DNA of 64,000 bases. Source: an uncultured Lachnospiraceae bacterium (GTDB lineage Bacteria > Bacillota > Clostridia > Lachnospirales > Lachnospiraceae). Under the pieces are notes generated by a model. The model did not search any database. It was not told the DNA's origin and saw only the letters and a list, made by a program, of their open reading frames with translations. Below, one piece after another: positions 40,631 to 40,764 of this stretch. The stretch is taken from positions 13,227 to 77,226 of the forward strand of contig ONAZ01000007.1 of assembly GCA_900315945.1 (NCBI GenBank). The letters run 5' to 3'. Made by a program: the position numbers and the translations under genes. Numbering within the stretch: position 1 is the stretch's first letter; every line of letters begins with the position of its first letter.

Positions 40631-40764
40631 CTACTATTATGTAATTGTCTTAAAGGAGATCCTCCACAGCGTCGGCACTTAGCGAAGCCGTAGGCTGAGG
40701 TTAGTACCGTTACGCGAGGACCGGGCGATAGCGTAATCTCCGTAAGATAATTACATAATAGTAG
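40631..40764. repeat. ~134 bp element with ~29 bp AT-rich inverted-repeat arms flanking a 75 nt GC-rich structured core, inserted between grpE and dnaK
   Basis: Left arm ctactattatgtaattgtcttaaaggagat matches the reverse complement of atctccgtaagataattacataatagtag (1 mismatch, 1 small bulge). The core cctccacagcgtcggcacttagcgaagccgtaggctgagg...tacgcgaggaccgggcgatagcgta contains nested short GC stems. Confidence 0.5.

What the first reader, a model, noticed from the sequence alone, without database searches (positions are those of the whole stretch)
40631..40764. Long perfect-arm hairpin element with GC-rich structured core inserted between grpE and dnaK
grpE and dnaK are normally separated by about 20-60 bp. 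Here there is a 190 bp gap containing ~29 bp inverted-repeat arms (ctactattatgtaattgtcttaaaggagat / atctccgtaagataattacataatagtag) around a 75 nt GC-rich core with nested stems. It would form a ~27 bp duplex inside the polycistronic hrcA-grpE-dnaK-dnaJ mRNA. That makes it a candidate RNase III processing or stability determinant that uncouples grpE and dnaK levels, or else a MITE-like insertion. The architecture matches the elements at 567-716 and 45925-46068, and all three arms share a ..TATRTAATTG.. segment.
Basis: seen in the sequence. Interest (0 to 1): 0.6.

Follow-up and report, generated by a model that had tools for sequence, protein, structure and literature searches.

The report
Conserved structured hairpin between grpE and dnaK
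The long hairpin between the heat-shock genes grpE and dnaK is real and belongs to a previously undescribed family of about 145-nt rod-shaped structured elements in gut and rumen Lachnospiraceae, but its better-folding strand here lies opposite to the operon, so it is probably more than a simple mRNA processing site.

Summary
A 191-nt grpE-dnaK spacer holds a 147-nt hairpin (40625-40771). It has a 22-bp arm, a 6-bp inner helix and a GC-rich three-helix core, and it folds far better than shuffled sequence (z about -7).

It is not the same thing as the elements at 557-724 and 45918-46083. Those are TwoAYGGAY RNAs (Rfam RF01731). The focal element matches no Rfam family and is not detected by a clade-specific TwoAYGGAY profile.

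In related Lachnospiraceae the element sits at the same spacer position and is 95-100% identical. Four-fold sites of the neighbouring genes are only 44-81% identical, and the flanking spacer is unalignable. One allele group carries it inverted. Others have a 120-nt internal deletion, no hairpin, or an unrelated hairpin.

A covariance model found two distant homologues at other loci (L052, L019). Their arms are completely different but still pair, and they share a core (CGGYACUUAG...GUACCGCU). With them, 34 of 54 pairs show compensatory changes. G-U pairs indicate that the window + strand, antisense to the operon, is the RNA sense.

No target-site duplication, extra copy, promoter, terminator or active flipping was found. 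My best reading is a new structured-RNA family member. An effect on operon mRNA processing is possible but untested.

The parts
40625..40771 (+). Whole structured element (147 nt) as delimited by the covariance models. The sense strand assigned from family G-U asymmetry is the window + strand, antisense to grpE-dnaK.
   Evidence: cmsearch R1 172.7 bits, R2 165 bits, full-length match. Fold z about -7.
40631..40652 (+). 5' arm of the closing stem, CTACTATTATGTAATTGTCTTA
   Evidence: All 22 pairs are kept in all variants. One pair covaries (U-A to A-U). There is one conserved G-U (G40647-T40748).
40743..40764 (+). 3' arm of the closing stem, TAAGATAATTACATAATAGTAG
40655..40664 (+). 5' strands of the inner helices: GGAGAT pairs with ATCTCC (40736-40741), and CCTC pairs with GAGG (40716-40719)
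   Evidence: RNAalifold consensus. The C-G to U-G change in L194 keeps the pair.
40669..40715 (+). Apical helix P3. It carries the family-conserved core CGGCACTTAGCGA (40673-40685) and GAGGTTAGTACCGTT (40697-40711), a U-U mismatch, a tandem G-A / A-G internal loop, a 2-nt 3' bulge, and the AGCC-GTA-GGCT tip (40686-40696).
   Evidence: The core is invariant or nearly so in three lineages, the tip is variable, and the base pair U-A / C-G covaries.
40720..40735 (+). 3' junction segment ACCGGGCGATAGCGTA with a mini-hairpin (GC-GATA-GC), conserved in outline in L052 and L019
40593..40783 (-). grpE-dnaK intergenic spacer (191 nt) that hosts the element. The dnaK Shine-Dalgarno AGGAGG lies at 40602-40607 (minus strand), outside the hairpin.
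40784..41458 (-). grpE
   Evidence: ORF. Pfam GrpE on the identical protein.
38694..40592 (-). dnaK
   Evidence: ORF. Pfam HSP70 on the syntenic gene.
42624..42650 (+). CIRCE operator (TTAGCACTC-N9-GAGTGCTAA, perfect) upstream of hrcA. It defines the operon whose transcript crosses the element.

Best explanation
The element is one member of a previously undescribed family of about 145-nt rod-shaped structured RNAs found in Lachnospiraceae.

Its anatomy is as follows:
- A long closing stem whose sequence is free to vary as long as it pairs.
- An asymmetric junction with a small 3' hairpin.
- An apical helix carrying an almost invariant core: CGGYACUUAG on the 5' side and GUACCGCU on the 3' side, with UUA just before it in the focal element and L052. 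This core includes a U-U mismatch, a tandem G-A loop and a 2-nt bulge.

I infer that the conserved core is a recognition surface for a protein or another RNA. I also infer that the closing stem gives nuclease resistance and defined ends. None of this was tested.

In this clade the element has been lodged in the grpE-dnaK spacer since before the species diverged and is kept under strong constraint. It has been inverted once through its own perfectly palindromic outer arms. In some strains it has been lost by deletion. Spacer alleles have also been swapped between species by recombination.

In the window its RNA-sense strand is the + strand, antisense to the heat-shock operon. The operon mRNA therefore carries the complement, which still forms a duplex of about 28 bp. 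Any effect on the operon, such as an RNase III cut or a decay barrier, would be a by-product of the stem rather than the reason the core is conserved.

Shown here: the structure, conservation, covariation, the family, the strand asymmetry and the allele history. Inferred: that it is expressed as RNA, what it binds, and its effect on grpE and dnaK.
For: Structure: folding is far below shuffles on both strands.

Conservation: the 8 distinct variants differ from the window element at 1-6 positions over about 134 nt (95-100% identity). Four-fold degenerate sites of hrcA, grpE, dnaK and dnaJ are 44-81% identical between the same genomes. Sequence just outside CTAC...GTAG is unalignable between allele groups.

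Same ancestral site: the left flanks of the three filled alleles are homologous (TAAAGNC, then 2-5 nt, then CTAC; read).

Family: CM R1 finds L052:2165-2306 (53 bits, E about 2e-9 over 590 kb). CM R2 finds L019:9163-9308 (58 bits, E about 7e-10 over 918 kb). Both are full-length, lie at other loci, and have unrelated arm sequences that still pair.

Covariation: in the three-lineage alignment 34 of 54 pairs carry compensatory changes and 96.8% of cells are paired, against 29-47% when partners are slid.

Specificity controls: about 1.08 Mb of viral contigs carrying a loose core pattern gave no CM hit at E<=1.

Strand: the minimum free energy (MFE) of sense versus antisense is -67.5 / -55.2 for L052, -62.6 / -56.4 for L019 and -62.4 / -61.0 for the window. 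There are 5 G-U pairs each in L052 and L019.

Not a described family: there is no Rfam 15 match at E<10 for any of the three lineages.
Against: - Only three independent lineages support the family. The alignment was fitted to the model, which inflates pair counts.
- No promoter or terminator is consistently placed next to any copy. Scans are at the level of shuffles. Independent expression is therefore unsupported, and no + strand gene lies upstream in the window.
- In the focal clade the two strands fold almost equally well, so the strand call rests on the two distant members.
- Close relatives tolerate loss of the element (70-71-nt and 40-nt alleles), so it is dispensable.
- Both distant members lie within 6 kb of grpE only because all held loci are centred on grpE. 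Copy number per genome is unknown.
- Compensatory changes in a DNA palindrome can arise by template switching without selection on RNA.
Confidence: 0.45

Rival explanations
1. A cis-acting intercistronic hairpin of the heat-shock operon. The closing stem of about 28 bp in the hrcA-grpE-dnaK-dnaJ mRNA would be cut by RNase III or would block exonucleases. That would set different stabilities for the grpE and dnaK segments. Only the stem would matter, so either orientation works.
For: - The element lies inside a CIRCE-controlled operon, 19 nt after the grpE stop and 39 nt before the dnaK start, and it leaves the dnaK ribosome-binding site free.
- Both strands form the long duplex.
- Inversion has been tolerated.
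- Other Lachnospiraceae carry unrelated stable hairpins in the same spacer: L179, L013/L016, L019, L023, L034, L035.
Against: - This does not explain why loops, bulges and unpaired core segments are 95-100% conserved while neutral sites are saturated.
- It does not explain why homologues with the same core occur outside any dnaK operon spacer.
- The operon-sense strand in this genome carries a conserved A-C mismatch in the arm that a single mutation would repair.
- Close relatives do without the element.
Confidence: 0.25
2. A selfish or neutral dispersed palindromic repeat (MITE, REP or ERIC-like) that lands in intergenic spacers in either orientation. Its sequence would be kept uniform by recent spread or by gene conversion among copies, with no function for the host.
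For: - Conservation has sharp boundaries at the base of the hairpin.
- There is presence/absence and orientation polymorphism among close relatives, and spacer alleles are exchanged between species.
- Family members occur at different loci in different genomes.
- Two hits in about 540 kb of other Lachnospiraceae loci would fit roughly ten copies per genome.
- The same genomes carry another multicopy long-stem element, TwoAYGGAY.
- Other hairpin repeats occupy this spacer elsewhere: the L019 and L035 spacer elements have second copies.
Against: - No second copy was found in the 64-kb window with filters off, nor in about 1 Mb of related loci.
- There is no target-site duplication at any of the three filled alleles (read).
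- The short clade-1 allele keeps 14 nt of the arm and looks like a GTA-to-GTA microhomology deletion, not an empty target.
- The pattern of a conserved core with variable arms is the reverse of a MITE.
- There were no matches in phage, plasmid or viral collections.
Confidence: 0.22
3. An inverton. A site-specific invertase would flip the core between the inverted arms and so switch something in the operon on or off.
For: The inverted repeats flank a short segment, and both orientations exist within one species. L185 and L187 have flanking genes 98-99.7% identical but opposite orientation.
Against: - Orientation is fixed per allele. All 9 contigs with the L185-type flanks show one orientation and all 16 with the other flanks show the other.
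- The L187 allele differs in its flanks and is 97% identical to that of another species, so it is an imported allele and not a flip.
- The core has no promoter or terminator.
- No recombinase is among the genes called within 10 kb.
Confidence: 0.03

Closest known systems
TwoAYGGAY RNA (Rfam RF01731), present in the same window at 557-724 (+) and 45918-46083 (-)
   Same: - Overall layout: a closing stem of about 25 bp around a GC-rich core, 150-170 nt in total.
- Intergenic position in Clostridiales gut bacteria.
- Function unknown.
- Present or absent among close relatives.
   Different: - The focal element has no AYGGAY loops and a different core topology (one long apical helix plus a mini-hairpin, against two side-by-side hairpins).
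- There is no Rfam hit at E<10 and no hit with a clade-specific nucleotide profile at E<=100.
- The focal CM scores the two TwoAYGGAY copies at only 16 and 11 bits.
- TwoAYGGAY is visibly multicopy in these genomes. The focal family is not, in the sequence available.
Correia / nemis elements of Neisseria and ERIC elements of enterobacteria (from my own knowledge; not checked against papers here)
   Same: Palindromic elements of about 100-150 bp, found inside transcription units in either orientation. They fold into long RNA hairpins and can act as RNase III or decay determinants.
   Different: Those families are high-copy. They have conserved terminal inverted repeats and target duplications (TA for Correia). 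Here there is no duplication and no extra copies, and it is the core rather than the termini that is conserved across lineages.
Intercistronic stabilising hairpins such as REP/BIME in E. coli operons, and processing of the B. subtilis dnaK operon transcript (from my own knowledge)
   Same: A stable stem-loop between cistrons of one operon that can set segmental mRNA stability.
   Different: Those act purely as stems and are not conserved in their loops across species. They do not have homologues with the same core at unrelated loci.
Small hairpin-loop inversions in chloroplast non-coding DNA, and quasipalindrome template switching (from my own knowledge)
   Same: The segment between perfect inverted repeats was flipped in situ in one lineage. 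The breakpoints are hidden inside the perfectly palindromic outer 16 bp.
   Different: That describes a mutational process. It does not explain what the element is.

Membership tests
TwoAYGGAY RNA (RF01731) | Scores at or above the Rfam gathering threshold (43 bits) | tested here: not met
   No TwoAYGGAY match on either strand of 40550-40850, even at E<=10. The two sister elements score 86.9 and 51.4 bits.
TwoAYGGAY RNA (RF01731) | Two adjacent hairpins with AYGGAY terminal loops | tested here: not met
   The core has a single long apical helix with a GUA or GAA loop and a GAUA mini-hairpin.
TwoAYGGAY RNA (RF01731) | Sequence similarity to local copies, including the arms | tested here: not met
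   An nhmmer profile of 11 clade copies with flanks, run with --max and E<=100, does not hit 40600-40800.
MITE-like mobile element | Terminal inverted repeats | tested here: met
   22-nt arms with one G-T.
MITE-like mobile element | Direct target-site duplication flanking the element | tested here: not met
   There are no direct repeats at the boundaries in the window, L182-type or L185-type alleles (sequences).
MITE-like mobile element | Multiple near-identical copies in a genome | tested here: inconclusive
   No other copy was found in the 64-kb window (filters off) or in about 1 Mb of related loci.
MITE-like mobile element | Clean empty sites in relatives | tested here: inconclusive
   The clade-1 short allele keeps CTACTATTATGTAG, so it is an internal deletion. 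The clade-3 40-nt allele lacks the whole hairpin, but its flanks have diverged.
Inverton (phase-variable invertible segment) | Both orientations found on identical flanks within a population | tested here: not met
   Orientation is fixed for each flank type across 25 contigs. The L185 and L187 alleles differ in their flanks. Read-level data were not available.
Inverton (phase-variable invertible segment) | An orientation-dependent promoter or terminator in the invertible segment | tested here: not met
   No promoter-like or terminator-like site lies inside the core.
RNase III processing site | About 20 bp or more of near-perfect dsRNA in the transcript | tested here: met
   Predicted 22 + 6 bp closing stem on the operon-sense strand, with one A-C mismatch.
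RNase III processing site | Staggered cleavage in vivo or in vitro | not testable with these tools
   This needs end-mapping or enzyme assays.
CIRCE (HrcA operator) | TTAGCACTC-N9-GAGTGCTAA | tested here: not met
   The only matches with up to 3 mismatches are at 42624-42650 and 62107-62133.
Intrinsic terminator | A GC-rich stem followed by a U tract | tested here: not met
   No terminator-like site on either strand of 40300-41100.
New family proposed here (rod-shaped RNA with CGGYACUUAG...GUACCGCU core) | Full-length match to CM R1 or R2, with a paired closing stem and the conserved core | tested here: met
   Window 165-173 bits. L052 scores 53 bits with R1. L019 scores 58 bits with R2.

The most novel reading that the evidence does not exclude
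This is a new class of small, rod-shaped, structured RNA of gut and rumen Lachnospiraceae. Its invariant apical helix (U-U mismatch, tandem G-A, 2-nt bulge) would bind a specific partner or would be catalytic. In this clade it is housed in the dnaK operon spacer as a cassette. The cassette can be flipped through its own palindromic arms, deleted, and exchanged between species. In most carriers it would be expressed antisense to the grpE-dnaK junction, which would couple it to the heat-shock operon.
Probability: 0.3. Interest if true: 0.7.

Novelty: new variant of a known kind. Interest (0 to 1): 0.55.

Why it matters
If the family is real, it adds an orphan structured RNA to abundant gut and rumen Firmicutes. 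It comes with a clear consensus and a natural set of alleles at one locus: sense, antisense, deleted and replaced. That allele series is a ready-made experiment. It could show whether the element acts in cis on chaperone stoichiometry or in trans. It also shows that the grpE-dnaK spacer of Lachnospiraceae is a hotspot where different hairpin elements are swapped in and out, which matters for annotating these operons.

Tried and rejected
- **Metagenome scan.** Rescanning with the CM gave three long-hairpin hits: L068, L054 and L076. Those contigs have almost no bacterial ORFs and their scores are inflated by the pattern selection, so I do not count them as members.
- **Viral, phage and plasmid collections.** Specific patterns gave 0 hits. 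BLAST found nothing. A loose pattern gave 120 chance hits, none of which passed the CM.
- **TwoAYGGAY homology.** Rejected.
- **Larger inversion including the flanks.** Rejected by reading the L185 and L187 flanks.
- **Promoter for a + strand RNA.** The TTCCCA-18-AATAAT site at 40586-40615 is the complement of the dnaK start region. It recurs in L185, where it would give the wrong strand. No consistent signal appears in L182, L052 or L019.
- **attC, CIRCE, terminator, group II domain V and retron msr resemblances.** I considered these from the sequence and dropped them for lack of defining features or neighbouring genes.
- **Literature.** Searches found nothing on a grpE-dnaK hairpin in these bacteria or on TwoAYGGAY function.
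- **Translated-element protein search.** I did not run a protein search with a translated element, because no gene caller had called an ORF across it in any of the contigs listed.

Full report
**What is there.** The window carries a class I heat-shock operon on the minus strand: hrcA 41496-42569, grpE 40784-41458, dnaK 38694-40592 and dnaJ 37506-38684 (Pfam on identical or syntenic proteins). A perfect CIRCE operator lies at 42624-42650, behind a TTGACA promoter. The grpE-dnaK spacer is 191 nt (40593-40783). In 47 related loci the same gap is mostly 11-110 nt, with a median near 50.

Its parts, in order, are:
- arms CTACTATTATGTAATTGTCTTA (40631-40652) and TAAGATAATTACATAATAGTAG (40743-40764), giving 22 pairs with one G-T;
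- a small internal loop;
- GGAGAT / ATCTCC;
- a 4-bp helix CCTC / GAGG enclosing a long apical helix (40669-40715);
- a 16-nt 3' segment with a mini-hairpin.

The repeat finder reports the arms as the second-longest close inverted repeat in the 64 kb. As RNA, either strand folds at about -61 to -62 kcal/mol with z-scores of -6.5 to -7.0, and no shuffle folds as well.

**It is not a TwoAYGGAY element.** The focal hairpin gets no TwoAYGGAY match, and no meaningful Rfam match at all, at E<=10 on either strand. A nucleotide profile built from 11 TwoAYGGAY copies of this clade, with 45-nt flanks so that the arms are included, does not touch the focal locus at E<=100. A covariance model of the focal element scores the TwoAYGGAY copies at only 16 and 11 bits. 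The shared 'TATRTAATTG' is therefore not more than AT-rich coincidence. Only the general layout is shared.

**Organism and alleles.** The GrpE protein occurs on metagenome contigs with an identical spacer. The nearest named relatives are uncultured rumen and gut Lachnospiraceae. I collected the locus from relatives through their GrpE proteins and found six spacer alleles:
1. The window type, 189-191 nt. The element reads TTACGCTATCGCC... in the operon sense.
2. The same flanks with exactly 120 nt missing between two GTA triplets. This leaves ...GACCAAG CTACTATTATGTAG TTAGGTTAG... (L206). A near-identical version occurs in L174-178.
3. The L182 type, 216 nt, in the same orientation but with different flanks.
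4. The L185 type, 193 nt, with the element inverted relative to the operon. It is found with three different GrpE proteins.
5. A 40-nt spacer with no hairpin (L197, L205).
6. A 121-nt spacer with an unrelated GC-rich hairpin (L179).

The left flanks of the three filled alleles are recognisably homologous (TAAAGNC, then 2-5 nt, then CTAC). This is therefore one ancestral position rather than repeated insertion. No filled allele has a target-site duplication. The short clade-1 allele keeps 13 nt of one arm, which fits a microhomology deletion of the hairpin interior and not an unoccupied target.

L185 and L187 have flanking genes that are 98-99.7% identical but carry opposite orientations. However, the L187 spacer is 97% identical to that of a species whose genes are only 85-91% identical. 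It is therefore an imported allele and not a flip. Across 25 contigs the orientation is fixed for each flank type, and no recombinase is called within 10 kb. An active inverton is unlikely. The single inversion is most simply explained by exchange within the perfectly palindromic outer 16 bp of the arms.

**Constraint.** The eight distinct variants differ from the window element at only 1-6 positions over about 134 nt. Four-fold degenerate sites of the four flanking genes are 44-81% identical for the same genome pairs. The sequence immediately outside the arms cannot be aligned between allele groups, yet it still extends the stem by 4-6 pairs in each group (read). The few changes include two compensatory pairs (arm U-A to A-U; apical helix base U-A to C-G) and two changes that convert to or from G-U on the + strand.

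**A wider family.** A covariance model of the focal variants (R1) was searched over 590 kb of related loci. Besides the grpE-dnaK copies, it found a full-length match in a more distant Lachnospiraceae MAG at L052:2165-2306 (53 bits, E about 2e-9). This copy lies between an aminotransferase gene and a patatin-like gene, in the sense of both. Adding it to the model (R2) recovered L019:9163-9308 (58 bits, E about 7e-10 over 918 kb). That copy follows a UvrD-like helicase gene and is convergent with a DUF1292 gene.

In both distant copies the closing-stem sequence is entirely different but still pairs. The apical core is nearly invariant: CGGYACUUAG on the 5' side and GUACCGCU on the 3' side (with UUA just before it in the focal element and L052), plus the U-U mismatch, the 2-nt bulge, the tandem G-A loop (kept in L052, diverged in L019) and the outline of the 3' mini-hairpin. 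On the three-lineage alignment, 34 of 54 pairs show compensatory changes and 96.8% of cells are paired, against 29-47% when partners are slid by 1-3 columns. The caveat is that this alignment was fitted to the model.

As a negative control, 1.08 Mb of viral contigs that contain a loose version of the core pattern gave no hit at E<=1. None of the three lineages matches any Rfam 15 family at E<10.

**Strand.** The distant members fold much better on the model's sense strand: -67.5 against -55.2 kcal/mol for L052, and -62.6 against -56.4 for L019. Each has five G-U pairs that would be A-C mismatches on the complement. This is the signature of a single-stranded, most probably RNA, structure. The sense corresponds to the window + strand, which is antisense to grpE-dnaK in the window type and the L182 type and sense only in the L185 type. 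In the focal clade the two strands are nearly equal (-62.4 against -61.0), so the strand call for this locus is borrowed from the family.

**What could not be shown.**
- No promoter or terminator is consistently placed beside any copy.
- No second copy exists in the window, even with filters off, or in about 1 Mb of related loci.
- Nothing was found in phage, plasmid or viral collections.
Three long-hairpin hits among them sit on contigs without bacterial ORFs and are not counted.
- Copy number per genome therefore remains unknown. The two distant members lie within 6 kb of grpE only because every locus I hold is centred on grpE.

**Interpretation.** The best-supported reading (0.45) is that this is a member of an undescribed family of rod-shaped structured RNAs. 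Its conserved apical core would be the functional surface and its closing stem a structural requirement. In this clade it is resident in the dnaK operon spacer and has undergone inversion, deletion and inter-species allele exchange there.

Unrelated hairpins in the same spacer of other Lachnospiraceae also speak for a general role of 'some hairpin here'. Two of those, in L019 and L035, are copies of repeats found elsewhere. However, this idea does not account for conservation of the loops and unpaired segments, or for homologues outside dnaK operons.

A selfish dispersed repeat (0.22) would explain the polymorphism and the multiple loci. It lacks target duplications and extra copies, and it has the wrong conservation pattern, with the core conserved and the termini free. 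An inverton is unlikely (0.03).

Noticed in passing
window 517-768 and 45880-46121; L179, L182, L185, L191, L194: Both TwoAYGGAY RNAs are embedded in longer imperfect palindromes of about 240-250 nt, beyond the Rfam model. The copy upstream of lepA is conserved at the same place and in the lepA sense in five relatives, but it is not detected in L174 or L197. Extra copies occur nearby (three in L179's 20 kb). The family is therefore multicopy in this clade.
   Followed up: partly
window 45994-46040 and 600-650 (TwoAYGGAY hairpin loops): The two conserved loops (CA-UGGAU-G in the Rfam consensus, AGGAC/AGGAU here) resemble the CsrA-binding consensus with GGA in a hairpin loop, two sites per RNA. 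This is recalled from memory and untested. It might suggest a CsrA-titrating role for TwoAYGGAY.
   Followed up: no
window 46190-46290; L019:3924-4100: Two tandem hairpins (TCATAAGGAGGGACCCACGTGTGGAGGATGCCTTATGA) with a Shine-Dalgarno-like AAGGAGG lie just upstream of the DNA polymerase III delta gene (46303-47292). They are conserved there in relatives. Homologous hairpins fill the grpE-dnaK spacer of L019. They have no Rfam match at gathering.
   Followed up: partly
L187 vs L182/L194 and L185 (grpE-dnaK spacer): The whole 216-nt spacer is 97% identical between species whose flanking genes are 85-91% identical. Conspecific strains (98-99.7% in the genes) carry different spacers. Short intergenic alleles are therefore exchanged between species by recombination, with breakpoints at the gene ends.
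   Followed up: yes
L179:10652-10772; L035:6418-6626 and 9797-9923; L034, L013/L016, L023: Other Lachnospiraceae carry unrelated stable GC-rich hairpins in the grpE-dnaK spacer. The L035 spacer element has a second, inverted copy 3 kb away. The spacer looks like a hotspot for hairpin elements.
   Followed up: partly
window 42700-42775 (minus strand): There are three tandem direct repeats of about 24 nt (AGTTCACATAATxATTTTCAAAA) immediately upstream of the hrcA promoter and CIRCE.
   Followed up: no
window 62107-62133: A second perfect CIRCE operator, presumably for the groES-groEL operon. It explains the inverted repeat reported at 62100-62241.
   Followed up: no
L068:1959-2083, L054:819-960, L076:3355-3460: These are AT-rich metagenome contigs with almost no bacterial ORFs. 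They carry long rod-like hairpins whose tip, UAGCGA-AGCC-GAA-GGCU-GAGGUU, is nearly identical to the focal tip. L054 and L068 share arm sequences. They are probably unrelated palindromes picked up by the scan pattern, but a shared apical module is not excluded.
   Followed up: partly
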